From Bdellovibrionales bacterium (GTDB lineage Bacteria > Bdellovibrionota > Bdellovibrionia > Bdellovibrionales > UBA1609), in NCBI GenBank assembly GCA_023301025.1, contig JALZUR010000022.1:32724-96723 (forward strand): a DNA stretch of 64,000 bases, in the 5' to 3' direction. Within the stretch, counting starts at the first letter, position 1. Each line of letters begins with the position of its first letter. A program made the position numbers and the translations under genes. Of this stretch, positions 27,594 through 52,658 are shown one piece after another. The notes beneath the pieces are model-generated. The model did no database searches and had not been told where the DNA came from. It saw nothing but the letters and a program-made list of their open reading frames with translations.

Positions 27594-27613
27594 ACATCTA
27601 TTGTGCTCTAAAT

Positions 27614-28465: not shown

Positions 28466-28466
28466 A

Positions 28467-37476: not shown

Positions 37477-38025
37477 CTATAAAGACTTTGCAGTCAATCC
37501 TCTTAAAACACCAAGATCTGATATTTCTAAATATATTTGAAACTGCTCTTTACCGGCTTCATCAATTAAGGTGTATGTCTTTAAAAGTTCTGAAGCAAGA
37601 TTTCTACTATTTTCAACAAGTTTAAAATTTTTAGGGCTTTCAAACAAAATATCTAAGGCACGTCTGATAAAAAGCTCTGAATCTAAAATTTTAACTGAGG
37701 CAATACTATTATTTGCAAGTTTTAGTTTTAAGGCTTTTTTAGGTTCAATCTCTAAACTAAACTCACCCTTAAGATCTTCGAATAAAAACTTTTCTAGAGG
37801 TGATGGTTTAAAACCTAAATCTATATTTCTACCAGTTTTCACCTGTTCTACAACTTTTTTAGCTGCAAGTTCTGATAACTTTTTATCAAAAGAAAACTCT
37901 TTTGAAGCTAAAGAACGACCATTAGAATCTGCTTGTTTTTGATTGCTAATGTAAGCGCCTAAACCAGACACCACAGCAAGGCCAACCACAACTACAAAAG
38001 ATTTATAATAAGAAAATGTTTTCAC
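37477..38025 (-). CDS. N-terminally anchored hypothetical protein
   Basis: 182 aa with a single N-terminal TM or signal (SFVVVVGLAVVSGLGAY). GTG start, no SD. It follows the gliding cluster. Confidence 0.4.
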   Translation of the reverse strand: MKTFSYYKSFVVVVGLAVVSGLGAYISNQKQADSNGRSLASKEFSFDKKLSELAAKKVVEQVKTGRNIDLGFKPSPLEKFLFEDLKGEFSLEIEPKKALKLKLANNSIASVKILDSELFIRRALDILFESPKNFKLVENSRNLASELLKTYTLIDEAGKEQFQIYLEISDLGVLRGLTAKSL

Positions 38026-38103: not shown

Positions 38104-38694
38104 CTAAGAGCCCTCTGCTTCAGCTTCTCCATCATTTTTTCCAGGTTTTTTTAAGACTGCAAAATTGATAGCCTCACCGCCCGACTCAGTGATTGTATAC
38201 ATCACTTTTTTCAAATTTAAAATTTTAGTGCCTTTATCAGCTTGAATAGTAACTTTAACAACACTTGGAAGTTTTACTCTATCTGGTGCTTTTGCATCTT
38301 TTACAGCTGTTTGAATTTTTCCAGCTAAGGACTCTTTTTTATCTTCAGCAATTTGTTTTATAAGCTCAGTTTTAAGTTTAGATAAAACCCAATCCTCAGA
38401 AGCTTCAATTTCTTTTAAAGTCTCAACAGCTACTCCATTAATTTCAGCACCATTAACAGAAAGCACAACAACGTTACTGGGCTCAAGCTCTTCAGTTGAA
38501 CTGGCCTCTGGAAGTACAACACCCTCTTTCATTGGAAGAACTTCACCCGTTGATTGATAGTTCATTAAAAGAAAAACCACCAAAACGGTAAACATATCAA
38601 CCATGGCTGTAAGTGAAAGACTTGCTACAGCCGAACGGCCGCCACCACCAATTCTACCTCTTCTATCTCTTTTTCCAGGAACATGAATGGGCAT
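38104..38694 (-). CDS. ExbD/TolR-family motor subunit (AglQ/AglS-like)
   Basis: SLTAMVDMFTVLVVFLLM TM with the conserved Asp. I start at the ATG at 38694 (MPIHVPGK…), which follows GGGGGGA and sits 1 nt after the upstream stop. The track start at 38757 overlaps the upstream gene by 62 nt. Confidence 0.75.
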   Translation of the reverse strand: MPIHVPGKRDRRGRIGGGGRSAVASLSLTAMVDMFTVLVVFLLMNYQSTGEVLPMKEGVVLPEASSTEELEPSNVVVLSVNGAEINGVAVETLKEIEASEDWVLSKLKTELIKQIAEDKKESLAGKIQTAVKDAKAPDRVKLPSVVKVTIQADKGTKILNLKKVMYTITESGGEAINFAVLKKPGKNDGEAEAEGS

Positions 38695-38695
38695 A

Positions 38696-39181
38696 TTAAA
38701 TCCCCCCTTTTTGAGCGGCTTGGGTGGTAACAGCAATGTTTGGAAAACCTTCACCAATTGCTACATCCATTCCTTTTACCATAAACTCATAGGCAAGCTT
38801 ATCTTCAACAGTTAAAAAGATATCTTTTTTATTAGGATAACGTTTTTTGATCTTAGCCAGCTGTTCACCTAAAAAGACTTGATCATACTCACCATCTTTT
38901 TTCGGAATTGGAACACGAGCTGTCCCAATAATAACAACATAACCTTCTTCTTGAATGTCTAATCTTAAAGGAACTTCAAGATCTTTAGGCTTTACTATAT
39001 CTTCTATGTCACCTGTTTTTTTCCCATAAACAGAAGTTCCAAGTTGAATCATAGTAATTTGATTCCAAACAGCTGTAATCAACAAGAAGACTATAAGAAC
39101 ACTCATCAAATCGATAATGGGAACAACGTTTAATTCCACATTTGCTGATTTTCCACTTTTTCCGTCATCAATATGAGCCAT
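38696..39181 (-). CDS. ExbD/TolR-family motor subunit (AglS/AglQ-like)
   Basis: LNVVPIIDLMSVLIVFLLI signature TM with Asp, plus a periplasmic ExbD-like domain. Confidence 0.8.
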   Translation of the reverse strand: MAHIDDGKSGKSANVELNVVPIIDLMSVLIVFLLITAVWNQITMIQLGTSVYGKKTGDIEDIVKPKDLEVPLRLDIQEEGYVVIIGTARVPIPKKDGEYDQVFLGEQLAKIKKRYPNKKDIFLTVEDKLAYEFMVKGMDVAIGEGFPNIAVTTQAAQKGGI

Positions 39182-39233
39182 CTTCTAAGCCATCCTTATC
39201 TTTAAAATATTACAGACAAAACAAACGAACACA

Positions 39234-39902
39234 TTATGTTCGTTGTATTTTATCTCTATTAGCAGTAACTAAGTTCATTACATCCATACTTGATTCAAGC
39301 ATGTCGCTTGTTGCACGAGAAATTCTAATTTGAAAAAACCCGTAAGCAACAATTGCAATAATAGCTGAAAACAATCCAAATGCTGTACAGTTTAATGCCT
39401 CTGAAATACCACGCGCAAGAATGATTGATTTTTCTGCTGCATCTGCCGAAGCCACACCACTAAAGGCAGTGATCATACCAATAATGGTTCCAAGTAGTCC
39501 CACTAGAACCACAACGTTACCAAAAACAGCTAGAAAACTCACCCAACCTTCAAGCTTTGGTGTTTCTCTTAACACTGAGGCATCCATTGCAACTTGCACC
39601 TCTTCATCAGGTCTACGATTCAAAACCTGAACCAAACCTGCTTGAATAGTATTAGTTAAAGGTGCTGGTGTTTTATCACAGTATGTAATGGCTTGTCTTA
39701 CATCTCCCCTTAACAACATACCCCGTATATTTGCCGATACATTTTTTTTATCTACCGCAAGTTTTGATAAAGCTAAAAGACGCTCTATAATCAAAAATAA
39801 TGACAATAAAAATATAAAGGCAATCATTAACATTACCGGTCCACCTTCGCAAAAGTGAACTGCTACCCATGAATTATAACTCTCCGTACAATTTTCAAAC
39901 AT
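39234..39902 (-). CDS. MotA/TolQ/ExbB-family proton channel (AglR-like)
   Basis: GLLGTIIGMITAF…GISEALNCTAFGLFSAIIAIVAYGFF. SD GGAGG. Confidence 0.85.
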   Translation of the reverse strand: MFENCTESYNSWVAVHFCEGGPVMLMIAFIFLLSLFLIIERLLALSKLAVDKKNVSANIRGMLLRGDVRQAITYCDKTPAPLTNTIQAGLVQVLNRRPDEEVQVAMDASVLRETPKLEGWVSFLAVFGNVVVLVGLLGTIIGMITAFSGVASADAAEKSIILARGISEALNCTAFGLFSAIIAIVAYGFFQIRISRATSDMLESSMDVMNLVTANRDKIQRT

Positions 39903-39923
39903 TTTTCCTCCAAAAAATTAAAA

Positions 39924-42230
39924 CTATCTACCTGATTCAAAAACAAAAGGATAACTTGAGACTTCGGCAATTTCATTCTCACCTGGACTCGGAAAAGTTA
40001 AACCTCTTAACCTTACTATTAAACACTTTTCAACACTCTTATCTGTCAGCGTACTTGAAATAACTTTTGCATCTGTCATTTTCCCACCGCTTCTGATATT
40101 CCAACTCAAAACAACTTTCCCAGAAAGACTGCTGTTTCTAACTAAACCCTTTTCATAACAGGCAGCAATTGCATTTCTGTTTCTTCTAATAAGTCTTCTA
40201 ATAGCCTCTTTATCTATAGAGCTAGAAAACTCACCAGCATCCCCATCAACATTTACGATTGTTGAATCACCTTTTCCACCAAGGCCAGCAACACCGTACT
40301 CTCCAGAACCACCACCTCGACCAGAGGTTTGTATGTCACCAGCGCCTGCAAGAGCAGACCCTTGTCCACCTTTTCCAGCCTGTTGAAGTTTTGTTCCTAA
40401 ACCTTCTCCAGCTTGATCTGAAAGCTGTCCTTGAAAACCTGTCTTTGAATCTGCAGTACCAAGTGTTTGCCCAACACCTGATGAGGCTTTATCTAAAGCT
40501 GTGTTAACCCCACCACCAGCTAACACACTTAAAAGACCAGTTTTGGTAACGTCTTTCTTTTGAGACTTCATGTTAGCTGCTTTCTTACCCGTTTTTACAG
40601 AGCCACCAGGACGTGAAGATCCTATTTTGTTATTAGTCTTTTTTCTTGAAGGTGCAGCTTTTTTAGGTTTATCAGCAACTTTAGTTTTTTTAATACTCGG
40701 GTTTTTAACACCACGCTTTTTTTCACCAACCTTAACTTTCTTAGGCTTTGCTTTTTTCTCTGCTACTTTAGTTTTTTTAACAACTTTAGGCTTTGGCTTA
40801 GGTTTTGGCTTAGGCGGTATTTTTTTAACAGGTGGTGGATTAAATGTAATCACAGCTTTTTTCAAACGGTCTTCTAAAAGCTTGTCTGTATCGTTTAGAT
40901 CAGATGGTGCATAAAAAAGCATGTACAAGGCCACCAAAAGAATTGAAGCAAAAGACATGAATATACCAACCATCTCTGAACTTGAAAAACCAAGAACAGG
41001 AGCTGATTGAGCCTTTGGTGCATCTGCAACATGTGAAACATAAACCACAACTCTATCGCTTAATAGATTCACTCTAAGCATCTGACCTTGATCAAGATCA
41101 ACAACTTTCCCTACTTTTGAAACACTAATTTGAGAGTCTTCATTAAGCTGAGCAATTTTTGACTCTTGACCCTTTCTTATTAGTGAGCCGGTCATACTTG
41201 AACTCAGATGAACCATGCACCTGTCGTTTAATGATAAGAATCTTTGTTTAAATTTTGGTCCCATTAAAGGAACAAAAATACTTGATTCATCAGAATTTGA
41301 GATATTTATAACTCTATTTTTGGTATTAGAATTAGAGTAGTGATAGGTTTTTAATATTCTTTCTTTCCAACAAATTAAAACCTGTACAACTGATCCTCTA
41401 GACGCAGGATCAAGAATCTCCTCAACACTTTGATGAAGACTTGCCGATGAAAACTTTCCGCTGGATTGAGGCTCATCTTTTAAATTCTTTATTTGATTGT
41501 CAACGTTAAGTCGATCAATTTTAACCGCAGAATCTACTGTAACACCTGGATCAGTCTTGTCGTCATCGGACATACCGGTATGAGTTACCTCTTTATCTTC
41601 ACCTGAAAAAGAGTCAAAAGGAACAGGAGGTGGGACACGGTTAGGCGTATTAGAAGTAACAGGTTTAGAAGCTTTAGGAGAAGATGCAGCTGGTTTAGAA
41701 GTAGCTGGCTGAGAGATGTTGGCTTCTGGAACACTTATATCAATGCCAGGATCTGTAGCTTCATCATCAGCATCTGTGTGATTTATTTGCCTTGTTGATT
41801 GCTCTTCTTTTTTAGGCGTTGTTTGAACTCTGCTTTTCACAACAACGCTCTCATCAGCAGTAGAAGTATTCGTTCTTTTAGGACTTGGAGTAGCATGAGT
41901 TTTTTTATAATTTTGAGCGACACTAGGTGTCGGCACTCCAATATAAAACCTAATTGAATATGGACCAATTATTAATGCTTCACCAGAGTTTAACATGGTC
42001 TCAATGATATTCTCGCCCTCAACTTGAACACCAGTTTCAGAACCTAGATCTGTTAAAAAATAGTCCACACCTCTTCGCTCAATCATTGCATGTATTGGAG
42101 CTACTGTTTCATCATCAAGTGCAAGACTTGATTCAGGCTTCCTACCAATTACAATTTGTGGAGTTAAGAATTGCTTTACAGATATTAGTCTATCGTTTCT
42201 ATAGACTTTAAGAACAACTGGCTCAGTCAT
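39924..42230 (-). CDS. FHA-domain / Pro-Lys-rich / TonB-C-like (AgmX-PglI-type) gliding protein, GltG-like
   Basis: N-terminal FHA (IGRKPESSLALDDETVAPIHAMIERRGVDYFLTDLGSETGVQVEG). One TM (MVGIFMSFASILLVALYMLF). A PPKPKPKPKPK linker. C-terminal IDKEAIRRLIRRNRNAIAACYEKGL…GKVVLSWNI. I start at the ATG at 42230, preceded by AGGGGTGA and overlapping the upstream stop (ATGACTGA). Confidence 0.7.
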   Translation of the reverse strand: MTEPVVLKVYRNDRLISVKQFLTPQIVIGRKPESSLALDDETVAPIHAMIERRGVDYFLTDLGSETGVQVEGENIIETMLNSGEALIIGPYSIRFYIGVPTPSVAQNYKKTHATPSPKRTNTSTADESVVVKSRVQTTPKKEEQSTRQINHTDADDEATDPGIDISVPEANISQPATSKPAASSPKASKPVTSNTPNRVPPPVPFDSFSGEDKEVTHTGMSDDDKTDPGVTVDSAVKIDRLNVDNQIKNLKDEPQSSGKFSSASLHQSVEEILDPASRGSVVQVLICWKERILKTYHYSNSNTKNRVINISNSDESSIFVPLMGPKFKQRFLSLNDRCMVHLSSSMTGSLIRKGQESKIAQLNEDSQISVSKVGKVVDLDQGQMLRVNLLSDRVVVYVSHVADAPKAQSAPVLGFSSSEMVGIFMSFASILLVALYMLFYAPSDLNDTDKLLEDRLKKAVITFNPPPVKKIPPKPKPKPKPKVVKKTKVAEKKAKPKKVKVGEKKRGVKNPSIKKTKVADKPKKAAPSRKKTNNKIGSSRPGGSVKTGKKAANMKSQKKDVTKTGLLSVLAGGGVNTALDKASSGVGQTLGTADSKTGFQGQLSDQAGEGLGTKLQQAGKGGQGSALAGAGDIQTSGRGGGSGEYGVAGLGGKGDSTIVNVDGDAGEFSSSIDKEAIRRLIRRNRNAIAACYEKGLVRNSSLSGKVVLSWNIRSGGKMTDAKVISSTLTDKSVEKCLIVRLRGLTFPSPGENEIAEVSSYPFVFESGR

Positions 42231-42480
42231 TTTCACCCCTAACAACTTCGTATCTAGTTTCACGCATCTCAGGCAAAAAGTTATCTCTAAGTTTTAATAG
42301 TCTACCATAATCAGGGTTTTTGTTTCTTAATATTAAAAGTAAATCAGGAGAGCTTACATCTCCACTAATCAATTCATCTTCAAAATCAAGCTTAGTGGTT
42401 CTAGTCTCATCTTCCTGCGCAAACAAAGAAAAAGAGCTAAAACAAATCACAAAGAAAAGCGTCCAAGTTGTAATCTTCAT
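42223..42480 (-). CDS. small secreted protein in GltF position
   Basis: 85 aa with signal peptide FSSFSLFAQ. Translationally coupled on both sides (ATGA overlap at 42477-42480). Confidence 0.5.
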   Translation of the reverse strand: MKITTWTLFFVICFSSFSLFAQEDETRTTKLDFEDELISGDVSSPDLLLILRNKNPDYGRLLKLRDNFLPEMRETRYEVVRGEND

Positions 42481-45400
42481 TTGTACTTCTCCATCAATTC
42501 TATTCTATCAAAATCTGCCCTACTGTTAGCAAGCGCTTTGTATTGACTAAAGTATGGATTGTCTGAATTTTTTGCTTTTTTTATGAATTTAAATAGAACT
42601 GCAAGGTTAGCTACTGAGGATATATATCTTGAATCTAACTGTTTAATACTTTTTAAAGATGAAATCGCTCGGTTGTACTGACCCTTTGAGACTAAATACA
42701 GAGCATAATTATTAATAGCATCAGGCATGTAGGCACTTGGAATGTTTGAATCAGAACTAGGGTATACTTTAGAAACGTAGTTTCCACCCTTATCATAACC
42801 ACCATACTTCATATAGTATGACCCTAAATTTAATGCTGAAGGTACATGAGATGAGCTGATTTTTAATGCTGATCTTAAATTAGCAACAAAAAGTCTATAA
42901 TCTTGATCAAGATAGCTGTTGTAGGCTTGTAAATTAAAATAATCAGCTCTTGATTTAAACTTTGAATCTACCTTATCTAAGTATATTTTTGAAACCCCTG
43001 AAAGCTTTTTAAGACTGTAAAAGAGTGCAAGAGTTACTAAAGCCTTAATGTCGCTTTTATTTTTAGAAAGTCTACTCGAGGTTTTATTTAAGATATCAGA
43101 TTCAGACATATCAAGCATCTGTTCTGATATTGAAAGCTTTTTTAAAAGCTTTTTGTCATAAGGCATTGGGTAAAAACCAGCGGAGTAGGAAATTTTATAT
43201 CTTTCATAGCTTGAATCAAGCTTAGCTAGTTCCGATAAAGCTTTTACACTGTCTTCGTTAAACGCTCCAAGCTGTTCAGCTTTTTCATATGCCTTTTTAT
43301 ATGAAGTGATCGCATTTTTTTGAAAAGGTTCTACTTTCTTCAATAATAAACCTTTAAACTGCTTTTTTTCATCTACAGTCAAACCTGCTGGAAGAGGGGC
43401 ATTAAGAATTGCTACACTTAAATGCTGATAGGACTGACCAAGTCTATTAAGTGCCGATACAATTGTATAACCATCATCAAAATTAATAACCTCTTTCATT
43501 TTCTTGTTGATCTGCTCAATCATAGCTAACTTTTTTGTGATAGCCGAGGCTTGTTGTTTTGGATTCTTTGGGATTTTAATTGAGATGTATTGATAAAAAA
43601 CTTTGTTTGATAGCTCAAATTTAGCTTTTGCAGCGTATGTTGATGCCTTTACAGCGCCTTTTCTTTTAAACTTATCATAAGTAAGAGTAGAGGCTCTATA
43701 CCAATAAGATGCTTTATCAACAGCTCTTTTATCTTTATAAATATCACCTATACGCGTAGCTATTTTAACAAGTAAAAAAGGCTGCACCTTAGAGGCATTA
43801 AAAACTTTTAATAGAGTATTAAGCTCTTCAGTTGTGTCACCTCGCCTTTTGTAAGCCTCGGCAATTCTGTAATCGTACAAACTGGTAAACTTAAGGCTGT
43901 CCACAGGCTTTAAAAGTCTAAAAACTCTTTTCATACCTGAGATATCATTAAAAGCTTCGTTAATCACAGCTGCATTAGATAGGTATTTTGCCTTAATCCC
44001 TCTATCTTTTGCTTTAACGCCTAATTTTTCAAAAGACCTTGCCGCTTCTTTTAACCTACCTGTGTTTTCTAGAATAATAGCAGAAAATTTTTGCCCATTT
44101 TCATAAAACTCACCACCTGAGGGATCAATCTTAGAATAGGCACTTAAAGCCTTATTAGGATCTTTAGCTTTTTCAAAGTTAATACCAGCATTATAATGGG
44201 CTTGGTTCTTTAATTTTGAATTAGGGTAGCTTTTAACAAAACTTAAAAAAGCAAGAGCTACATCTTCTGGTTTCTTTTCAGCATCAATCTCTTCGATTTT
44301 TTTAAAAGCTGATTTTTCTACAATATTTTTAACTTCAGAAACTTCAATTGATGAATTACCAGTAGATGCACCTAAAGCTACAAGCTCGTTACCTGCTTTT
44401 TCTAAACCAGCGTAATCATTTTTTAATTTATAAGAGTCTATAATTAAATTTGAAGAAAACTTTGCAAAATCAGAGTTTGGACTCTCCTTAATAATTTCTT
44501 TAAACAATGGCTCTGATTCAGAGAAAAAGTTATGCGAGTAGTAAATACTAGCAAGCTTGTATTTAATATCTAATTTTTTTTCAGTAAATTTTGGGTTACT
44601 TACATAAGCTTTAGCAGATGCAACAAAGTCTTTTTCATCTTTAGAAAGTGGATACTCTTTAGTTGATTTTCCAACCTTACGTCTCACCTCTTCATCTGAA
44701 GGTATAATTTTTTCTAAGGATAAAACTGCATTCAACTTCGATTTACTTTCATATTTAGGATCTTTAACATTCCGATAAGCCTTATAAGCTCCAGGATAAT
44801 CCTGCATTTCATACAAAAGCTCCGCTTGATAAAACTGAAGCTCTGAATAAAATTCACTTTTTGTAAAAGTTTTTAGATACAGGTCATAACCATTCTTTGC
44901 TCCGAAACCTAGAGCTTTTCTCTTATCTTTTCGAAAATTTTGGTGAAGTTTTAAGACATGACTTCTTAAAGATGTTTCAGCTTTCGCCATAGCCTCTGCC
45001 ATCTTTGGATTATTCTTAGACTTTTGCGCCCACTTCTTATCAGGAGAAAACTGTTCTACCCACTTATAGAGCTCTTTTTCATATAGATCTTGCCTTCCAG
45101 TAGAAGCTTGCATGTTGACCATTGCATACTGATAATCAAAGCTCTTACTATTGTCGGGCTTCATCTCTGTGAGTCTATCAAAAAGATACTTAGCTTGTTT
45201 TTTTTGGCCTGTATCAACGTAAATGAATGCCAACTTTTCTAGGCTTTTATAGGCATCGTCTGTAGACATTATGTTTGTAAAGTACGTAAGTGCTGCCTTT
45301 GGCTTTCCTGATTCAGAGTAAAACAAAGGAAGATCTTTTTTAGCCTCATCAGCTAAAATTTTACTCTTTCTGTTTCTAACATCATCAGACCCAAGCTTTA

Positions 45401-46244
45401 CAACTTGAAGTATGTTCCTAAGTGCAGATGAGTGATCCCCCATCTTTCTGTTTAGCCAAGCAAGCTTATAAGTTGCTAGAACATAAGATGAAGACTTACG
45501 CCCATTACTAATAACTTTTTCATAATAAGTTTTTGCTAGATTTCTTTTATCTCCATCAAAATAATAATCAGCCAAAGAGAGGTTGGCTTCATTTATATAC
45601 TCACTTCTAGGATAAGAATCTGATAATTTCTTATAATAACCAATTCCCTCATTAATGTTCCCTAAAGACATATAATTATATCCTAAAAAGAACAAAACTT
45701 CATCGGCACCACGAGTATTTTTATAATTTTTAAGATACTGCTTATATATATCTATAGATTTTAAACTAAATTTTTTAGTTTCAGAGTTTTGAACTCTTGG
45801 CTTTTGCTTAATAGAACCTGCTAGATAAAGTTTTAACTTCTTTTCAAATTCATCTTGAGCTCTTCTATCGGCAAGAGCTGATTTTTCAGAGTATGATTTA
45901 GCTAACTTTAAAAGGATTCTTTTTTTCGTCTCACCACCATTAAGTTTATTTGAAAGCTTATGAAGCTGATTAATCTCTTGATTTAGTTTTTTCTCATATT
46001 CTGCTTCAGCCGTACCATCGGGAAAAATTGCGTTAAGGCTAGAGATAGGCTTACCCACTCTAATATTTACTCTATCTCTTGGTTTGGCAGCTTTAGAGTT
46101 ACCGTAACTAGGTAAGGTTCTTTCTTCTTTTTCAATGGATTTAATTGCATCTCTAACTGTCTTTGAAAAGGCATTCATTGATACAACTGATAAAGATGAA
46201 ACAACTAAGAGACTAACAGAAAATGATTTATAAATGCTACTCAC
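42477..46244 (-). CDS. very large TPR-repeat protein, GltD/AgmU-like
   Basis: 1255 aa with a signal peptide and dozens of TPR-like A..Y…G.Y..A repeats (for example EVLFFLGYNYMSLGNINEGIGYYKKL). GTG start overlaps the upstream stop by 8 nt. Confidence 0.6.
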   Translation of the reverse strand: MSSIYKSFSVSLLVVSSLSVVSMNAFSKTVRDAIKSIEKEERTLPSYGNSKAAKPRDRVNIRVGKPISSLNAIFPDGTAEAEYEKKLNQEINQLHKLSNKLNGGETKKRILLKLAKSYSEKSALADRRAQDEFEKKLKLYLAGSIKQKPRVQNSETKKFSLKSIDIYKQYLKNYKNTRGADEVLFFLGYNYMSLGNINEGIGYYKKLSDSYPRSEYINEANLSLADYYFDGDKRNLAKTYYEKVISNGRKSSSYVLATYKLAWLNRKMGDHSSALRNILQVVKLGSDDVRNRKSKILADEAKKDLPLFYSESGKPKAALTYFTNIMSTDDAYKSLEKLAFIYVDTGQKKQAKYLFDRLTEMKPDNSKSFDYQYAMVNMQASTGRQDLYEKELYKWVEQFSPDKKWAQKSKNNPKMAEAMAKAETSLRSHVLKLHQNFRKDKRKALGFGAKNGYDLYLKTFTKSEFYSELQFYQAELLYEMQDYPGAYKAYRNVKDPKYESKSKLNAVLSLEKIIPSDEEVRRKVGKSTKEYPLSKDEKDFVASAKAYVSNPKFTEKKLDIKYKLASIYYSHNFFSESEPLFKEIIKESPNSDFAKFSSNLIIDSYKLKNDYAGLEKAGNELVALGASTGNSSIEVSEVKNIVEKSAFKKIEEIDAEKKPEDVALAFLSFVKSYPNSKLKNQAHYNAGINFEKAKDPNKALSAYSKIDPSGGEFYENGQKFSAIILENTGRLKEAARSFEKLGVKAKDRGIKAKYLSNAAVINEAFNDISGMKRVFRLLKPVDSLKFTSLYDYRIAEAYKRRGDTTEELNTLLKVFNASKVQPFLLVKIATRIGDIYKDKRAVDKASYWYRASTLTYDKFKRKGAVKASTYAAKAKFELSNKVFYQYISIKIPKNPKQQASAITKKLAMIEQINKKMKEVINFDDGYTIVSALNRLGQSYQHLSVAILNAPLPAGLTVDEKKQFKGLLLKKVEPFQKNAITSYKKAYEKAEQLGAFNEDSVKALSELAKLDSSYERYKISYSAGFYPMPYDKKLLKKLSISEQMLDMSESDILNKTSSRLSKNKSDIKALVTLALFYSLKKLSGVSKIYLDKVDSKFKSRADYFNLQAYNSYLDQDYRLFVANLRSALKISSSHVPSALNLGSYYMKYGGYDKGGNYVSKVYPSSDSNIPSAYMPDAINNYALYLVSKGQYNRAISSLKSIKQLDSRYISSVANLAVLFKFIKKAKNSDNPYFSQYKALANSRADFDRIELMEKYK

Positions 46245-47740
46245 AGCGACTTACCCCCAGGTAATGATAGTTTCCTATCTCATCTAACCAGTACTCACCT
46301 TTAAACGGCCAATACTCATAACCATTTTTTCTAAAGCTAAAACGACTAGACTTTGCTTCAACCTTAGTATCAAAGTCATCGGTTGCCTCAAGCTTCTTTC
46401 TTGCATCTTCTTTTTCAGAAGAAACCAACTCAAATTTTACAAGTTCTTTTTGATCATCAAACTCATTAAGTTCTTTTTTGTATTGTAAAAGTCTACTTCT
46501 AATAGCCTTACCTAATCTTCTAAAGCTTCCTCTTTTTCTATTTTCAATAATTTTTTTAGCAAAAGAAGCAACAGTTGTATTTGACCATGGCCCACTTTTT
46601 TTAATCTTTTGCAAATCATCTTCTAAATTGTAGTAGTAATCAGATCTTGATTGAATCATAGTTGATCTGTTTAAGTCCCTGACCAGTACATAAGGAATTG
46701 TGTATCTGTAGCCTTTTTTACCGGTCTTAAACTCATTTTTTAAAGCTAAATAGTTTTTTAAGTCATTTTTATATGATTTATTTCTTTTTAAATATCTCTT
46801 TAAATCTTTGTTTATTTTTCCGTATGTCTCATCATAAACTTTTAAAACCTTGTTCACTTCATCTACTTTACAAATGTACAAATAGATAATAGATCGCAAG
46901 AGTGTAGCTTCAGGATAATAGTAGTTGTTGTAGTACTCTGAATGTAGAGACTGAAAGTTACTTAGAGCACTTCTAAACTTACCAGCTCTTAACATGGCCC
47001 AAGAAGACTCAAAAAGCATGTCATGAAAGTACTTACTATCTCTAGGAATCTTTCTGTATTCACTTAAAGAGCCATTCCATTTTTTCATTTGGTATAAGAC
47101 TCTTGCTCTACCCATTACAGCAGCTACTCTTTGATTGTCTACAATACCTTTTTCAGACCTTGCGTTGGCAGATTGAGTAAATGCAGAAAATGATTTTCTT
47201 AAACTGTTTGTCTCTGCTAACGCAAGCCCAATGAAATACCTAGCTTTAGAATACAGTTCATGATTTTTAGGTATTTTTCCAAAATAATTTGCAGCTTTTT
47301 TAAACTTACCTATTCTTATATAAGCCTGTCCAAATCTAAAGTATAAAATAGGCTTCTGCTCTTTTGGAAAAGTCTTAATTCTAATTTTAGAAAGAGCATA
47401 ATTCAAACCAACATCATCACCTGCATCAAAAGACAATCGTGAGAGTATTTCTAAGTATTTAGAAAGATGTCTACTTCTTGGACTTACTTTAATAGCTTTA
47501 ATAACACTAAAAATTGCAGGTTGCACAAGTTGCATATTTGCAAAACTTCGCCCTAACTCGTAATACACCTCTCCACTTTCTTTTTTATATCTACTATTAT
47601 TAACAAGACTGTATAAAACTTTTGAAGCTTCTTGTGGGTTTCCAGATTTTATTAAAGACCTTGCTCTTTCTAGCTCTTGAGAAGACCAAGCGTTGTTTAC
47701 AAAAAATATTAAAAGGATCGCAATTATAATTTTTTTCAAT
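46237..47740 (-). CDS. TPR-repeat protein, GltC/GltE-like
   Basis: TPR repeats throughout. I start at the TTG at 47740 (LKKIIIAILLIFFVNNAWS signal peptide), preceded by GGTGAGG. The track start at 47826 overlaps the upstream gene by 80 nt. Confidence 0.55.
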
Positions 47741-47746
47741 TTCGCC

Positions 47747-48523
47747 TCACCTAGTCTTACTAAATGGTAAAAATATACTAAAACCTGCTGACAGATATAA
47801 AAACCCTGTCTGAACTTCTTGACCACTCACGCTGCCTTGTAAGTCATTTCGAGCATTAGCTCTAAAAAAGTTGTAACTAAGAGTCCACTTAAAAGTTACG
47901 TTTTTTGTCATTGGGTAAACCTGCCCAGAGCCAACATGAAGTGTTGTCACTCTTTGGCCATCATTTGTCCCTGTTAGGCCGCCACCCAAAGTAAAATACA
48001 CTTCAAAAGGGTTGATAGTTTTTTCCTGCAAACTGATTTTTCCATATATTGGAGACCAACGAAGATGAATCCCATAATAATCTGAAGGCACAACAATACT
48101 TCTAGTAATGATATTTTGTTCACTCTCTAAATTTGAAGTAATATTCTTTTCTAAATCTGTTAAAATTAAACCCTCAAATTCAAGTCCAAAAGCTTCAGTG
48201 AAATGATATGTTAAAGACCCATTAAAACCCAAAAAGTCATAAAATTGCGAGTTTAAAGCAAGACTTCCAGCTCCCCATAATTCTAAACGTTTAGATTTAT
48301 CTAAATATTTTTTTTGAATTACAGCAATATCTTTAAATTTTTCAAGTTCTCTTAAGTACTTTATATCTTCTTTCTTTTCTTTTTTTCTAGAAACTTTATT
48401 AGAACTACGACTGGAAACAGACGACGAAGTTTCTTCTTCTGCTTCAAAATCATCAAAGACGTTTTGCGCTTCAGATAAAGAACAAAGTAAAAGCAAGCTT
48501 AAACTTAGTATAATTTTTTTCAC
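47747..48523 (-). CDS. outer membrane beta-barrel protein, GltA/GltB-like
   Basis: Signal peptide (LLLCSLSEAQ) and a Lys/Glu-rich linker. Amphipathic strands end in SIFLPF. GTG start after GGGGAG. Confidence 0.55.
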   Translation of the reverse strand: MKKIILSLSLLLLCSLSEAQNVFDDFEAEEETSSSVSSRSSNKVSRKKEKKEDIKYLRELEKFKDIAVIQKKYLDKSKRLELWGAGSLALNSQFYDFLGFNGSLTYHFTEAFGLEFEGLILTDLEKNITSNLESEQNIITRSIVVPSDYYGIHLRWSPIYGKISLQEKTINPFEVYFTLGGGLTGTNDGQRVTTLHVGSGQVYPMTKNVTFKWTLSYNFFRANARNDLQGSVSGQEVQTGFLYLSAGFSIFLPFSKTR

Positions 48524-48644
48524 TTATCATCTCCCCACTGACCCAAATCAAATCCCCTATTTCTACAGCCAAACTTTCTACAGGCGTTCTTCAAAAAAAC
48601 GCCCGGACACACCAACAAAATCACCAAACAAAATCACACACTAC

Positions 48645-49400
48645 CTAAAGTAAAAAACTTAGACCAAATAAGAGTGTTGAATCAAATTGAAGTGATGTTT
48701 CATATTCTGAACTTGGTGGTGGTGTTGTACCTGGAACCAACTGCCCCACACTAGTTATATCAGGTCCATTAAATGCCGTTAGTAAAATATCAAACCTAAT
48801 TGCCACACTTGAGTTAAAATAAAATCTTTGGCTTAAACCAATATTTGCTGCAGGAGCAATGAGATCTCCCATTATGTAAGCCCCTCCTCCAAACAAACCA
48901 GAAAGAGTTAGATTCATGACAAAGTCATTAGTTAATGAAATTTTACCGTAATAAGCAGTGTATTGATAATGTGCCGCTATAAACATTTCTTTATTAGGAG
49001 CTAAAGAAGCATCAAAAGCTAAAGCTCCAACACTTCCATCTGCTAAAATCACCTGACCAGTTTGAAGCGCAACACCATTACTGTTAAGGCCACCCATAAA
49101 AAGAGTTCCCATAAGATGTACAGCGTTAGTGTTGTCAAAGTGATATGTTAATGAACCACCAAAATTAACTGGATTGTACAGAGGCTCAGACGCTACAAAT
49201 CCACCCATTAGATTTAATTCAAATTTTCCAGCATGTTTCACTTTTCTATTTAAAATAGCAACCTTTTCTTCAAATACAGGAAGAGTAGACTCTGTCGACA
49301 GCTCTTCTTCTGGAAACTTAATTTTAACATCAGCATTAGCATCAGTTGCTAAAAACAGTAAAAAGTGAAAAACAAATGCTAAAGCTAAATAAAATCTCAT
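48645..49400 (-). CDS. outer membrane beta-barrel protein, GltB/GltA-like (paralog of previous)
   Basis: Signal peptide (FLLFLATDANA). It shares strand motifs with the neighbour (GGSLTYHF vs NGSLTYHF; YGKISL in both). The ATG abuts the kdsC stop (TAAATG). Confidence 0.55.
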   Translation of the reverse strand: MRFYLALAFVFHFLLFLATDANADVKIKFPEEELSTESTLPVFEEKVAILNRKVKHAGKFELNLMGGFVASEPLYNPVNFGGSLTYHFDNTNAVHLMGTLFMGGLNSNGVALQTGQVILADGSVGALAFDASLAPNKEMFIAAHYQYTAYYGKISLTNDFVMNLTLSGLFGGGAYIMGDLIAPAANIGLSQRFYFNSSVAIRFDILLTAFNGPDITSVGQLVPGTTPPPSSEYETSLQFDSTLLFGLSFLL

Positions 49401-49895
49401 TTACACATCACCCTTTGATTCAATAATCATCTCACAGATTTCTCTTACAGCTCCGAAGCCACCTTCTTTAGTAGTCACGTAATCAGATTTTTTCTTTATC
49501 TGATCCAATGCATGAGGAACAGTCACACCAAAACCAACATGTTCAATAACTGAAAGGTCCATAAGATCATCCCCTATGTAGCAAACCTCTTCTGCTTTTA
49601 AGCCTGATTCTTTTAAAATAAGCTTTAAATCATCAAGTTTGTTCTTTGCATCCTCTCTGAAGTAATCAACTTTTAAAAATTCAAATCTTGTTCTTACATC
49701 GTGTGCACAGGCAGCAGTTATAATACCAGTTTTAACACCTATCTTTTGCAGTCTTTTTAAACCCATTCCATCATAAATAGAATAGTGACGGCACCATTCA
49801 TCTTTAGAATTTAACCAAATTCTGGTATCCGTCATAACGCCATCTACGTCGCTTAAAAAAAGTTTTATCTGTTTCAATCTGCTGTCTACGTTCAT
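49401..49895 (-). CDS. kdsC: 3-deoxy-D-manno-octulosonate 8-phosphate phosphatase (HAD-IIIA)
   Basis: LFLSDVDGVMTD, GIITA and YIGDDLMDL motifs. Size 164 aa. SD GAAAGG. Confidence 0.8.
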   Translation of the reverse strand: MNVDSRLKQIKLFLSDVDGVMTDTRIWLNSKDEWCRHYSIYDGMGLKRLQKIGVKTGIITAACAHDVRTRFEFLKVDYFREDAKNKLDDLKLILKESGLKAEEVCYIGDDLMDLSVIEHVGFGVTVPHALDQIKKKSDYVTTKEGGFGAVREICEMIIESKGDV

Positions 49896-51755: not shown

Positions 51756-52658
51756 TCACTGCATTTTAAGCTGGAACTCTTCATCATCTAAACTTGTTTT
51801 TTCATCACCTTCAAAATTATCTGAACCTTGCTTAATCATAGAGATAAGATCTTCGACTGTATTTTGATGGTGACTCTCTAAATTGTCCCAATCTAAGCGC
51901 TGCAAAGCCTTATTGAACCATCTCTTTTTTCCAGATTCTGCTTTTATAAGTGATATCAGCTGTCTAGATCTTAAAAAATAATCTTCTAAGTGTTTTACAG
52001 ATTGTATCAACTGCTCTTGAGTAGAATTTAAATCTGGAGCCGAGTCACTACTTGAAAGAGAAGAAGATATTTGAGACGAATTTTGAATCTCATTTTTTTC
52101 GCCCCACTCAATAGTTACGGTGTTGCCTGTCCAAAACACACTGGAGTCTTCTTCTGATTCAACAAAGGCTGAGACTACTTCTAAAGCTCCAGACAAATAG
52201 TCTGTAACCAAAGGGAACTCTTCAGAAGACAGCTCTGTTTGAAAGACTGTGTTTTCATTTGTTTTTTCAATCCAAGTAAAAGCACTTAATGGTCTTACGA
52301 AATAAGAAAGATAACTTTGTGGAGAAGAGTAAATTTCTAAAGAGGTTTTTAAAATCTTTAAGACCTGGTTTAAAACTCCCCAACCGTTTAGATTAAACTC
52401 TTCAAGAGCAATGGATTTTAAACTGAGTGTAGGAATTTTATAAGAGATGTAAGACAAAAATTTCTCTAAAGTTTCAGCGTCGATCCAAGCTTCTGGGTCA
52501 AAGGCTTTTTCAGGTGTGAGCCCTACCTCTTCTAAAAAATCACCATGAACAATGCCCATAGACTCTAAGCTTAAGCATACAGAGTGCGTGATTTTAGCGC
52601 TAAATTCTAACTTGGATTCCATAGAGCACAAATTGCCAGTTAACTGTAAAAATAGCAA
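51756..52658 (-). CDS. hypothetical cytoplasmic protein
   Basis: 300-aa ORF between cpaF and eno with no recognisable motifs. It has a Ser-rich linker (SSQISSSLSSSDS). Probable start at MESKLEF (about 52622). Confidence 0.45.
   Translation of the reverse strand: MLFLQLTGNLCSMESKLEFSAKITHSVCLSLESMGIVHGDFLEEVGLTPEKAFDPEAWIDAETLEKFLSYISYKIPTLSLKSIALEEFNLNGWGVLNQVLKILKTSLEIYSSPQSYLSYFVRPLSAFTWIEKTNENTVFQTELSSEEFPLVTDYLSGALEVVSAFVESEEDSSVFWTGNTVTIEWGEKNEIQNSSQISSSLSSSDSAPDLNSTQEQLIQSVKHLEDYFLRSRQLISLIKAESGKKRWFNKALQRLDWDNLESHHQNTVEDLISMIKQGSDNFEGDEKTSLDDEEFQLKMQ

What the first reader, a model, noticed from the sequence alone, without database searches (positions are those of the whole stretch)
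38104..49895. Compact Agl/Glt-type gliding-motility operon led by kdsC
Seen: ten tightly packed minus-strand genes with overlapping or abutting stops and starts:
- kdsC
- two paralogous beta-barrel OMPs
- a TPR protein of about 500 aa
- a TPR protein of 1255 aa
- an 85-aa secreted protein
- an FHA/TonB-C-like protein
- one MotA/TolQ/ExbB gene
- two ExbD/TolR genes
Established: in Myxococcus xanthus the AglRQS TolQR-like motor works with GltA/B (OMPs), GltC/D/E (TPR), GltF and GltG/J (TonB-like). Related clusters exist in Bdellovibrio, which glides on surfaces. Inference: this is a minimal Agl-Glt set in one transcription unit. It lacks recognisable GltH/I/J/K or CglB-type adhesin genes here, and it is transcriptionally fused to an LPS-core (Kdo) phosphatase gene. 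Four track starts in this block look too long (38757, 42263, 47826 and their overlaps). SD-supported starts are given in the features.
Basis: partly seen in the sequence, partly recalled or inferred. Interest (0 to 1): 0.6.

Follow-up and report, generated by a model that had tools for sequence, protein, structure and literature searches.

The report
Bdellovibrio-type Agl-Glt gliding gene cluster
This is the counterpart, in an uncultured Bdellovibrio relative, of an already described gene cluster (Bd0827-Bd0838) for a proton-driven, envelope-spanning gliding-type machine; the reading is right, the thing is known, and the two new details are small.

Summary

The interpretation as an Agl/Glt-type cluster is also supported. 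The genes are kdsC, two GltA/B-type outer-membrane barrels, GltC, GltD, GltF, GltG, AglR, AglQ and AglS.

The kind is already known. The same order, with kdsC in front, occurs in Bdellovibrionales genomes, including cultured B. bacteriovorus. There it is Bd0827-Bd0838, proposed in 2011 as the best candidate gliding apparatus. Transposon insertions across that cluster strongly reduce predation fitness.

Two refinements:
- GltE is not missing. The 1255-aa TPR protein is a GltD-GltE fusion. It is fused in 12 of 66 related loci, apparently through several independent events. [quoted passage not shown]
- The Kdo link is wider than kdsC. Related loci carry kdsD-kdsC, or kdsD alone, directly upstream.

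No Tol-Pal or TonB-receptor partner was found nearby. Gliding itself remains inferred.

Verdict: new member of a known kind, modest interest.

The parts
49401..49895 (-). kdsC (YrbI-family Kdo-8-phosphate phosphatase), first gene of the block; orthologue of Bd0827
   Evidence: TIGR01670 scores 125.7 bits against a cutoff of 106.95. The HAD DxD motif DVDGV can be read in the translation. The SD GAGAAAGG precedes ATG 49895. Its stop codon abuts the OMP1 ATG. kdsC lies directly upstream of the first barrel gene in 36 of 54 related loci. Bd0827 carries the same annotation in Tn-seq Data Set S4.
48645..49400 (-). GltA/B-family outer-membrane beta-barrel 1 (Bd0828 orthologue, GltA-like)
   Evidence: TIGR04565 OMP_myx_plus scores 62.8 bits against a cutoff of 60, over residues 67-250. 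The translation shows a signal peptide and an N-terminal extension of about 40 aa before the barrel. It sits in the same position as the 240-aa ORF in L042.
47747..48523 (-). GltA/B-family outer-membrane beta-barrel 2 (Bd0829 orthologue, GltB-like)
   Evidence: TIGR04565 scores 84.8 bits against a cutoff of 60, over residues 88-252. It is a paralogue of OMP1 (24% identity, E about 1e-6). BLASTP to the myxobacterial cluster proteins A271 and B350 gives E 4e-9 and 1e-4. It has a charged N-terminal extension of about 65 aa.
46237..47739 (-). GltC-like periplasmic TPR protein, 500 aa from TTG 47739 (the ORF extends to 47826)
   Evidence: NF033756 gliding_GltC gives E 6e-42, 144 bits, over profile positions 118-614 of 622; this is below the equivalog cutoff of 450. 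BLASTP to myxobacterial C512 gives E 5e-34. The SD TAGGTGAGG precedes TTG 47739, and a signal peptide follows.
42477..46244 (-). GltD-GltE fusion protein, 1255 aa. The GltD part is about residues 1-1010 (nt 43215-46244).
   Evidence: Residues 37-997 are 31% identical to the B. bacteriovorus GltD (Bd0832-type) ORF, E 2e-159. BLASTP to myxobacterial D1198 gives E 3e-48. A profile of the GltD parts reaches ~1200-aa TPR proteins of Cystobacter and Melittangium at E about 1e-128 to 1e-130. A 100% identical 1255-aa protein, P0083, lies on a 318-kb contig, and fused relatives of 1244-1267 aa occur in independent assemblies (fused ORFs in related loci).
42591..43127 (-). GltE-like TPR module inside the fusion (residues 1040-1218)
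   Evidence: An HMM built from 33 separate GltE ORFs of related loci hits residues 1040-1218 at 67.6 bits; every other TPR region of the protein scores 9 bits or less. Pairwise comparison with the L042 GltE ORF gives E 4e-7. The direct link to myxobacterial GltE is weak: NF033758 13 bits and tblastn E 0.024.
42223..42480 (-). GltF (CglF)-like 85-aa secreted protein
   Evidence: NF033764 gliding_CglF gives E 5.5e-7, 29.5 bits, below the cutoff of 90. BLASTP to myxobacterial F88, F77 and F86 gives E 4e-9 to 3e-7. It is present in the same position in all related loci. CglF is the same protein as GltF according to PMC4488436.
39924..42230 (-). GltG-like inner-membrane transducer, 768 aa from ATG 42230
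   Evidence: Sequence hits: Pfam FHA E 6e-11; NF033760 gliding_GltG E 2e-64, 218 bits against a cutoff of 650; NF033768 AgmX/PglI C-terminal domain 91.5 bits against a cutoff of 40. The AF2 model shows an FHA domain at 1-100, a second all-beta domain at 281-400, a transmembrane helix at 417-440, a disordered linker at 459-665 and a C-terminal domain at 670-765. A separate C-terminal domain model (pLDDT 87) has TonB C-terminal domains as its best Foldseek hits (6sly, E 2e-4). A sequence profile of that domain hits only TonB chains in the PDB (13 of 13).
39234..39902 (-). AglR-like TolQ/ExbB/MotA-family proton channel (Bd0836 orthologue)
   Evidence: PF01618 scores 90.6 bits. The TolQ equivalog model scores only 75 bits against a cutoff of 221. 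PDB TolQ is matched at E 9e-12 over TM2-TM3. It is 56-86% identical to its counterparts across related loci.
38696..39181 (-). AglQ-like ExbD/TolR subunit (Bd0837 orthologue, 161 aa)
   Evidence: PF02472 scores 53.2 bits. The membrane-helix Asp is D24, in PIIDLMSVL. Luciano's table maps Bd0837 (158 aa) to MXAN_6861, AglQ.
38104..38694 (-). AglS-like ExbD/TolR subunit (Bd0838 orthologue, 196 aa from ATG 38694)
   Evidence: PF02472 scores 56 bits. The SD AAAAAGGGGGG precedes ATG 38694. The membrane-helix Asp is D33, in AMVDMFTV, and there is a long basic N-terminal tail. Bd0838 is 196 aa and maps to MXAN_6860, AglS.
39224..39244 (-). Stem-loop followed by a U-rich tract between aglR and aglQ; specific to this lineage
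   Evidence: The terminator-like scan finds it. It folds at -24.2 kcal/mol, z = -4.2. No comparable stem-loop was found at this junction in the related loci, where the gap is mostly 0-30 nt (up to 86 nt in a few).

Best explanation
[quoted passage not shown] It is the orthologue of B. bacteriovorus Bd0827-Bd0838.

Proposed working, by analogy with Myxococcus xanthus:
1. AglR forms a TolQ-like pentameric channel in the inner membrane around an AglQ/AglS heterodimer. Each of the two subunits carries the membrane-embedded Asp.
2. Proton flow drives conformational work. This is passed to GltG, a single-pass inner-membrane protein with two cytoplasmic FHA-type domains, a long disordered periplasmic linker and a TonB-like C-terminal domain.
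3. GltG engages the periplasmic TPR scaffold. That scaffold is GltD, here covalently fused to GltE, together with GltF and GltC.
4. GltC docks under the outer-membrane GltA/GltB barrel pair.
5. The output is force at the cell surface: slow gliding, or translocation on surfaces or on prey, which in Bdellovibrio serves prey contact.

kdsC is probably co-transcribed as the first gene.

Shown here: gene content, homology, domain architecture, conserved synteny and orthology. Inferred: complex assembly, stoichiometry, coupling and the motility output.
For: - Family and domain hits for every gene.
- Direct BLASTP homology of the C, D, F and G proteins and the B-like barrel to proteins of myxobacterial A-H and D-H clusters.
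- The GltG model reproduces the five-part architecture published for M. xanthus GltG. Its C-terminal domain is TonB-CTD-like by fold and by sequence profile.
- The same gene order occurs in nearly all of 80 Bdellovibrionales loci that are long enough to show it, including cultured B. bacteriovorus. In L042 the ORF sizes are 166, 240, 266, 523, 1067, 288, 103, 684, 221, 158 and 214 aa. These closely match the published Bd0828-Bd0838 table.
- Luciano et al. 2011 name Bd0828-0838 the best candidate gliding apparatus. Its agl genes are the closest of the Bdellovibrio sets to aglRQS, and it lacks GltH, I, J and K.
- In the Tn-seq data, all of Bd0827-Bd0838 have predation fitness of about 0.0005-0.05 in at least one screen. 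Bd0838::tn is defective in prey attachment.
Against: - No experiment ties this cluster, or even Bd0828-0838, directly to gliding. A 2026 review says the Bdellovibrio gliding machinery 'remains unidentified'.
- B. bacteriovorus has four complete paralogous clusters. Others are the ones induced on surfaces (bd1480) or at prey exit (Bd2368-2377).
- The Tn-seq defect appears with planktonic prey in liquid, so the phenotype is about predation and attachment, not demonstrably gliding. Polar effects are not excluded.
- The matches to the GltC, GltG and CglF equivalog models are all far below their curated cutoffs.
- The link of the E module to myxobacterial GltE is weak.
- There is no adhesin (CglB type), GltK, GltH, GltI or GltJ in the cluster.
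Confidence: 0.8

Rival explanations
1. It is a Glt/Nfs-family machine whose output is not locomotion. It could be a pmf-driven surface transport or exposure device, as Agl-Nfs moves spore-coat polymer in Myxococcus. Here it might position an adhesin or a Kdo-containing surface glycan needed for prey attachment or entry.
For: - The contiguous gene order A-B-C-D-E-F-G matches the contiguous A-H clusters found in Melittangium and another myxobacterial locus (L081, L082). By my recollection this is the order of the nfsA-H operon; I did not confirm that order or compare with the operon itself. It does not match the split G1/G2/M1 layout of the Glt motility genes.
- Window proteins score slightly higher against those contiguous clusters than against a G1-type cluster.
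- Luciano et al. note that paralogous clusters have non-motility functions.
- The Tn-seq phenotype is attachment and predation on planktonic prey.
- Kdo-pathway genes kdsD and kdsC are conserved directly upstream.
Against: - The agl genes of Bd0828-0838 are reported as the closest of the Bdellovibrio sets to the motility motor aglRQS.
- The cluster carries its own motor, unlike nfs.
- Bdellovibrio does glide, and no other machinery is known for it.
- Attachment and gliding need not be alternatives.
- The kdsC linkage may simply be inherited synteny.
Confidence: 0.17
2. It is a Tol-Pal or TonB-ExbBD system, for outer-membrane integrity or energised uptake, that has been mislabelled as gliding genes.
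For: - AglR, AglQ and AglS belong to the MotA/TolQ/ExbB and ExbD/TolR families.
- The best PDB matches of AglR are TolQ and ExbB.
- The C-terminal domain of GltG has the TonB/TolA C-terminal fold.
- The TPR proteins hit the YbgF/CpoB model weakly.
Against: - No TolA, TolB, Pal or TonB-dependent receptor gene in the cluster or among the flanking ORFs scanned. Not every small flanking ORF was scanned.
- The TolQ, TolR and ExbB equivalog models score far below their cutoffs (75 against 221; 34 against 127).
- There are two different ExbD-type subunits.
- The transducer has FHA domains and the AgmX/PglI C-terminal domain.
- The partners are Glt-specific: OMP_myx_plus barrels and GltC, GltF and GltG model hits.
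Confidence: 0.02

Closest known systems
Bdellovibrio bacteriovorus HD100 Bd0827/Bd0828-Bd0838, one of four 'gliding' clusters (Lambert et al. 2010, PMC2797640; Luciano et al. 2011, PMC3169522)
   Same: Same genes in the same order and orientation: kdsC, two barrels, GltC, GltD, GltE, GltF, GltG, AglR, AglQ, AglS. Protein sizes are similar (AglR 222 vs 221 aa, AglQ 161 vs 158, AglS 196 vs 196, GltC 500 vs 523-529). It also lacks GltH, I, J, K and an adhesin.
   Different: Identity is only 30-65%, so the lineage is distant and uncultured. GltD and GltE are one 1255-aa polypeptide here, against two overlapping ORFs (1066 + 281 aa) there, and the GltE lipoprotein signal is lost. The genes upstream of kdsC differ: ftsB and eno here, a thioesterase in L042, kdsD in many relatives. 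A strong stem-loop lies between aglR and aglQ only here.
Myxococcus xanthus Agl-Glt gliding (bacterial focal adhesion) machinery: AglRQS + GltA-K + CglB
   Same: Homologous motor (one TolQ-like subunit plus two different TolR-like subunits). GltG has the same architecture: FHA, second beta domain, transmembrane helix, disordered linker, TonB-CTD-like domain. GltD, GltC and GltF are homologous, and there is a paralogous GltA/GltB barrel pair with N-terminal extensions.
   Different: All genes lie in one block rather than in three loci (G1, G2, M1). GltH, GltI, GltJ, GltK and CglB are absent from the block. GltD and GltE are fused. Scores fall below the equivalog cutoffs of the Myxococcus-based models. 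The gliding function is not demonstrated.
Myxococcus Agl-Nfs spore-coat assembly system (NfsA-H) and similar contiguous A-H clusters (L081 Melittangium, L082)
   Same: The contiguous order A-B-C-D-E-F-G is the same as in L081 and L082; that nfsA-H itself has this order is from recollection, not checked here. The proteins are homologous.
   Different: Those clusters carry an H barrel and no motor genes. Nfs borrows AglRQS and acts in sporulation, and Bdellovibrionales do not sporulate.
Tol-Pal and TonB-ExbB-ExbD systems
   Same: The same motor superfamily and the same kind of transducer C-terminal domain. Published AlphaFold models of AglRQS predict a TolQR-like 5:2 architecture.
   Different: There is no TolA, TolB, Pal, CpoB or TonB-dependent receptor. 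The ExbD-type pair is heterodimeric. The transducer carries FHA domains. The periplasmic and outer-membrane partners are Glt-specific.

Membership tests
Agl-Glt machinery (Myxococcus/Bdellovibrio type) | Motor: one MotA/TolQ/ExbB-family channel protein (AglR) encoded with two different ExbD/TolR-family proteins (AglQ, AglS), each with a membrane-embedded Asp | tested here: met
   PF01618 scores 90.6 bits. PF02472 scores 53.2 and 56 bits. D24 and D33 lie in the predicted membrane helices (read). The order R-Q-S matches MXAN_6862-6860 and Bd0836-0838.
Agl-Glt machinery (Myxococcus/Bdellovibrio type) | GltG-type transducer: cytoplasmic FHA domain or domains, one transmembrane helix, long disordered periplasmic linker, TonB-CTD-like (AgmX/PglI) C-terminal domain | tested here: met
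   FHA E 6e-11. NF033768 scores 91.5 bits against a cutoff of 40; NF033760 gives E 2e-64. The AF2 architecture agrees. The C-terminal domain has the TonB-CTD fold, 6sly E 2e-4. The PDB profile hits are all TonB.
Agl-Glt machinery (Myxococcus/Bdellovibrio type) | GltD: TPR scaffold of about 1100-1200 aa, encoded next to GltE, GltF and GltG | tested here: met
   31% identity over 985 columns to the Bd0832-type protein. BLASTP to myxobacterial D proteins gives E 1e-38 to 3e-48. The profile search reaches Cystobacter and Melittangium proteins at E about 1e-130. No hit to a GltD-named NCBIfam model appeared.
Agl-Glt machinery (Myxococcus/Bdellovibrio type) | GltE: TPR (lipo)protein encoded directly after GltD | tested here: inconclusive
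   Clear homology to the separate Bdellovibrio GltE ORFs (Bd0833 type): 67.6 bits at residues 1040-1218. Only 13 bits, E 0.037, to the Myxococcus-based NF033758, and tblastn E 0.024 to a myxobacterial E protein. It is fused to GltD and has no signal or lipobox of its own.
Agl-Glt machinery (Myxococcus/Bdellovibrio type) | GltF/CglF: small secreted protein between GltE and GltG | tested here: met
   NF033764 gives E 5.5e-7, below the equivalog cutoff of 90. BLASTP to three myxobacterial F proteins gives E 4e-9 to 3e-7. The position is conserved.
Agl-Glt machinery (Myxococcus/Bdellovibrio type) | GltC periplasmic TPR protein plus paralogous GltA/GltB outer-membrane barrels | tested here: met
   NF033756 gives E 6e-42 over most of the profile, below the cutoff of 450. 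TIGR04565 is above its cutoff for both barrels. The barrels are mutual paralogues. BLASTP to myxobacterial C and A/B proteins is significant for GltC and for OMP2, but OMP1 gave no hit at E <= 0.01.
Agl-Glt machinery (Myxococcus/Bdellovibrio type) | Myxococcus-specific parts: GltH, GltI, GltJ, GltK and the CglB adhesin | tested here: not met
   None is in the block. tblastn with two myxobacterial H proteins finds nothing in the 64-kb window. The GltJ model hits only the C-terminal domain of GltG. GltI, GltK and CglB were not searched for outside the block. The same absence is published for B. bacteriovorus, so this argues against membership of the Myxococcus subtype, not of the Bdellovibrio subtype.
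Agl-Glt machinery (Myxococcus/Bdellovibrio type) | Function: pmf-dependent gliding on surfaces | not testable with these tools
   Indirect evidence only. The orthologous cluster is required for predation and attachment in Tn-seq. The gliding machinery of Bdellovibrio is still described as unidentified.
Bd0827-Bd0838 orthologous group (Bdellovibrionales) | The same ten or eleven genes in the same order, with best match and shared flanking kdsC | tested here: met
Tol-Pal system | tolQ-tolR-tolA-tolB-pal(-cpoB) gene set; TolQ and TolR at equivalog level | tested here: not met
   TolQ scores 75 bits against a cutoff of 221 and TolR 34 bits against 127. No TolA, TolB or Pal was found in the block or among the flanking ORFs scanned.
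TonB-ExbB-ExbD uptake system | TonB with a Pro-rich spacer and TonB_C, ExbB and ExbD at equivalog level, and TonB-dependent receptor partners | tested here: not met
   ExbB scores 56 bits against a cutoff of 206 and ExbD 20 bits or less. No TonB-dependent receptor was found among the neighbouring ORFs scanned. The C-terminal domain has the TonB fold, but the protein carries FHA domains and the AgmX/PglI signature.

The most novel reading that the evidence does not exclude
The Kdo-pathway genes may be a functional part of the Bdellovibrionales Glt operon rather than passive neighbours. kdsD-kdsC, or one of the two, sits directly upstream on the same strand in most lineages, and Bd0827 insertions also reduce predation fitness. 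That would mean the machine depends on, or is co-regulated with, a Kdo-containing envelope glycan. Separately, the repeated and apparently independent GltD-GltE fusions are natural 'Rosetta-stone' evidence for the GltD C-terminus to GltE interface, which so far is only predicted by AlphaFold.
Probability: 0.15. Interest if true: 0.5.

Novelty: new member of a known kind. Interest (0 to 1): 0.3.

Why it matters
This adds a distant, uncultured-lineage orthologue of the one Bdellovibrio 'gliding' cluster whose disruption abolishes predation. It shows that the layout, including a leading Kdo-pathway gene, is conserved across the order Bdellovibrionales.

Two things are practically useful:
- A natural single-chain GltD-GltE can guide structural and biochemical work on the periplasmic scaffold of Agl-Glt machines.
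- The conserved kdsD/kdsC leader defines the likely operon start for expression and RT-PCR studies.

It does not change the current understanding of how such machines work.

Tried and rejected
- The genome-collection scan with the single 1255-aa protein found no confirmed relative. An alignment-based scan with GltG was needed.
- The sigma-70 promoter scan found fewer sites than in shuffled sequence, so it says nothing about transcription starts.
- I considered the aglR-aglQ stem-loop as a device to set the 5:2 subunit ratio. No comparable stem-loop was found at that junction in the related loci, so I do not claim this.
- NCBIfam at relaxed thresholds gave no hit to a GltD-named model and only 13 bits to GltE, so the D and E assignments rest on the Bdellovibrio orthologues, profile searches and position.
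- Foldseek with the full-length GltG model returned only FHA matches. A separate model of the C-terminal domain was needed.
- The PDB sequence search with AglQ found nothing.
- I searched the window for a second paralogous cluster, a GltH homologue and kdsD, and found none.
- The downstream 182-aa gene (37477-38025) was considered as an eleventh member. It has no Pfam hit and no homologue in any related locus, so it is not included.
- The Tol-Pal and TonB readings were rejected, as set out in the rival explanations.

Full report
**Observation**

The window (about 35% G+C) carries ten co-oriented minus-strand ORFs between 38104 and 49895. Pfam and NCBIfam assign them as follows:
- kdsC: YrbI family, TIGR01670, 125.7 bits against a cutoff of 107.
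- Two outer-membrane barrels of the 'OMP_myx_plus' family: TIGR04565, 62.8 and 84.8 bits against a cutoff of 60.
- A TPR protein whose best model is gliding_GltC: E 6e-42 over profile positions 118-614 of 622.
- A 1255-aa TPR protein.
- An 85-aa signal-peptide protein matching gliding_CglF: E 5.5e-7.
- An FHA protein matching gliding_GltG (E 2e-64) and, above cutoff, the AgmX/PglI C-terminal domain (91.5 bits against 40).
- One MotA/TolQ/ExbB protein.
- Two ExbD/TolR proteins.

The two barrels are paralogues (24% identity).

With Shine-Dalgarno-supported starts the junctions are 0, 121, 7, -8, -4, -8, 21, 52 and 1 nt.
- 38757 should be ATG 38694, giving 196 aa.
- 42263 should be ATG 42230, giving 768 aa, identical in extent to database protein P0001.
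- 47826 should be TTG 47739, giving 500 aa that begin with a signal peptide.

**Relatives and orthology**

The closest database proteins come from metagenomic Bdellovibrionales. There is one 100% match, and the next best is 61%.

An alignment-based scan of one genome per species returned 80 loci. All but one are labelled Bdellovibrionota (Bdellovibrionales, Bdellovibrionia, Bdellovibrio, Pseudobdellovibrionaceae, Oligoflexia); the exception is a 4.8-kb contig binned as Bacillota. They include complete genomes of cultured B. bacteriovorus.

tblastn of the ten window proteins shows the same order in nearly every locus long enough to hold it: kdsC, OMP1, OMP2, GltC, GltD(E), GltF, GltG, AglR, AglQ, AglS.

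In B. bacteriovorus Bd16 (L042) the ORF sizes are 166, 240, 266, 523, 1067, 288, 103, 684, 221, 158 and 214 aa. Apart from the kdsC ORF, which that table does not cover, and the unannotated 103-aa GltF-like ORF, these closely match the table in the supplement of Luciano et al. 2011 for Bd0828-Bd0838 (240, 266, 529, 1066, 281, 707, 221, 158, 196 aa). That table maps the genes to GltB, GltC, GltD/AgmU, GltE/AglT, GltG, AglR, AglQ and AglS. Bd0827 is annotated as Kdo-8-phosphate phosphatase in an independent data set. The window cluster is therefore the orthologue of Bd0827-Bd0838.

**What is already published**

- Lambert et al. 2010 listed four tonB-like/agl operons in HD100, among them Bd0828-Bd0838.
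- Luciano et al. 2011 showed that Bdellovibrio has four 'expanded core complex' sets. They found that GltH, I, J and K are absent, and that Bd0828-0838 is the best candidate gliding apparatus because its agl genes are closest to aglRQS.
- Tn-seq in B. bacteriovorus gives predation fitness values of about 0.002-0.05 for Bd0828-Bd0838. For Bd0827 the value is 0.37-0.60 in the full screen and about 0.001 in the mini screen. Bd0838::tn is defective in prey attachment, killing and rounding.
- Other paralogous clusters are induced on surfaces (bd1480), in the early bdelloplast, or at exit (Bd0411-0421 and Bd2368-2377).
- A 2026 review still calls the Bdellovibrio gliding machinery unidentified.

**Homology to Myxococcales, tested directly**

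A profile of 13 GltD parts reached ~1200-aa TPR proteins of Cystobacter and Melittangium at E about 1e-128 to 1e-130. I then looked at their genomic contexts:
- Two are contiguous A-B-C-D-E-F-G(-H) clusters (L081, L082).
- One is a D-E-F-G-H cluster of the G1 type (L083).

BLASTP of window proteins against these gives:
- GltC to C: E 5e-34
- GltD to D: E 3e-48
- GltF to F: E 4e-9
- GltG to G: E about 1e-16 to 3e-19
- OMP2 to A/B: E 4e-9

No H homologue exists in the window.

**GltG**

The AlphaFold model has these parts:
- an N-terminal FHA domain, residues 1-100, pLDDT about 90
- a disordered stretch
- a second all-beta domain, residues 281-400
- a transmembrane helix, residues 417-440
- a disordered linker of about 200 residues, rich in Pro, Lys and Gly
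- a C-terminal alpha/beta domain, residues 670-765

This is the architecture described for M. xanthus GltG. The FHA domain matches solved FHA domains. The C-terminal domain modelled alone (pLDDT 87) has TonB C-terminal domains as its best matches (6sly E 2e-4; also FusB, the TonB-BtuB and TonB-FhuA complexes, and TolA). A sequence profile of this domain hits only TonB chains in the PDB (13 of 13).

**Motor**

The AglR-like protein aligns to TolQ TM2-TM3 (E 9e-12). Both ExbD-type proteins carry the membrane-helix Asp, D24 and D33. The AglS-like one has a long basic N-terminal tail, consistent with the AglQ/AglS heterodimer inside an AglR pentamer that has been modelled for Myxococcus.

**New detail 1: GltE is fused, not missing**

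- Residues 37-997 of the 1255-aa protein align with the separate GltD ORF of B. bacteriovorus (31% identity).
- Residues 1047-1218 align with its separate GltE ORF (E 4e-7).
- An HMM built from 33 separate GltE ORFs hits residues 1040-1218 at 67.6 bits, against 9 bits or less for the other TPR regions.
- Among the 66 related loci that span the D-F interval, 12 have one fused ORF of about 1250-1320 aa. The others have two overlapping ORFs of about 1070 and about 295 aa.
- The fusion is not an assembly artefact. A 100% identical protein lies on a 318-kb contig, and relatives at 45-67% identity from independent assemblies are 1244-1267 aa long.
- A rough neighbour-joining tree puts the window in a uniformly fused clade (with L001-L006, L008 and L026). 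The other fused loci (L022, L029 with L038, L046) are scattered among split ones, which suggests several independent fusions (midpoint-rooted NJ tree, indicative only).
- Separate GltE ORFs mostly start with a lipoprotein signal and some with a type I signal. The fused form has neither.
[quoted passage not shown] The fusion joins exactly these two parts.
- The direct link of this module to Myxococcus GltE is weak.

**New detail 2: the Kdo linkage is conserved and broader**

- kdsC lies directly upstream of the first barrel gene, on the same strand, in 36 of 54 loci with enough upstream DNA. The alignment-estimated spacing is under about 110 nt in 35 of them and about 430 nt in the other, L014.
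- In most of the others the directly upstream gene is a SIS + 2xCBS protein of about 325 aa, of the KdsD/KpsF type.
- kdsD also precedes kdsC in many loci, including the window's closest relatives L001, L002 and L004.
- The likely ancestral order is therefore kdsD-kdsC-gltA...aglS.
- The window has no kdsD anywhere in its 64 kb. ftsB/DivIC and enolase precede kdsC.
- Whether this reflects function or inherited synteny is open. The Bd0827 Tn-seq defect could be polar.

**Rivals**

- Tol-Pal or TonB reading: contradicted. Those partner genes were not found in the block or among the flanking ORFs scanned. The TolQ, TolR and ExbB equivalog scores are sub-threshold. The ExbD-type pair is heterodimeric, and the partners are Glt-specific.
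- Non-motility Glt/Nfs-like surface device: cannot be excluded. The contiguous A-G order matches the contiguous myxobacterial A-H clusters, the known phenotype is prey attachment with planktonic prey, and paralogous clusters have diverged in function.

**Verdict**

This is a new, distant member with a GltD-GltE fusion and a conserved Kdo-gene leader. The surrounding window is ordinary chromosomal sequence.

Noticed in passing
related loci L001-L080 (e.g. L046:1596-2576, L007:1188-2171, L001:1174-2139): A KdsD/KpsF-type gene (SIS + 2 CBS domains, about 325 aa) lies directly upstream of the Glt cluster where kdsC is absent, and upstream of kdsC in many other loci. The implied ancestral order is kdsD-kdsC-gltA...aglS. 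The window itself has no kdsD.
   Followed up: partly
window 42477-46244; loci L001-L006, L008, L022, L026, L029, L038, L046: GltD and GltE are one ORF in 12 of 66 loci. The fused loci are scattered on a rough NJ tree, which suggests repeated fusion. Separate GltE ORFs carry a lipoprotein signal or a type I signal; the fused form has neither.
   Followed up: partly
window 39224-39244 (minus strand): A strong stem-loop (-24.2 kcal/mol, z = -4.2) followed by a U-rich tract lies in the 52-nt gap between aglR and aglQ. No comparable stem-loop was found at this junction in the related loci, where the gap is mostly 0-30 nt.
   Followed up: yes
window 37477-38025 (minus strand): A 182-aa ORF with an N-terminal hydrophobic segment lies 78 nt downstream of aglS on the same strand. 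It has no Pfam hit and no homologue in any of the 80 related loci. It is either a lineage-specific addition or unrelated.
   Followed up: partly
window 39234-39902 (AglR-like), residue I182: In the alignment to E. coli TolQ, the TM3 motif reads GLFSAIIAIVAY where TolQ has GLFAAIPAVMAY. An Ile therefore replaces the TolQ proline, which I recall as functionally important. The two conserved Thr positions (T139, T173) are kept.
   Followed up: no
window 52714-53847 (minus strand): A PilT/PilU-like type II/IV secretion ATPase (T2SSE, E 5e-56) lies about 3 kb upstream of the cluster, next to a 300-aa ORF (51756-52658) that has no family hit.
   Followed up: no
window 25389-30002 (minus strand): A 734-aa protein has a TadE/G-like N-terminal segment. 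It is followed by ORFs of 283 and 511 aa, of which the 511-aa one has no Pfam hit and the 283-aa one was not scanned. This may be a Tad/Flp-pilus-associated block.
   Followed up: no
L081:5265-5942 and L082:1404-2072: Both myxobacterial contiguous A-H (Nfs-like) clusters have, a few genes upstream, a gene of about 225 aa whose product hits Pfam Ribosomal_L3. That is an odd but shared neighbour.
   Followed up: no
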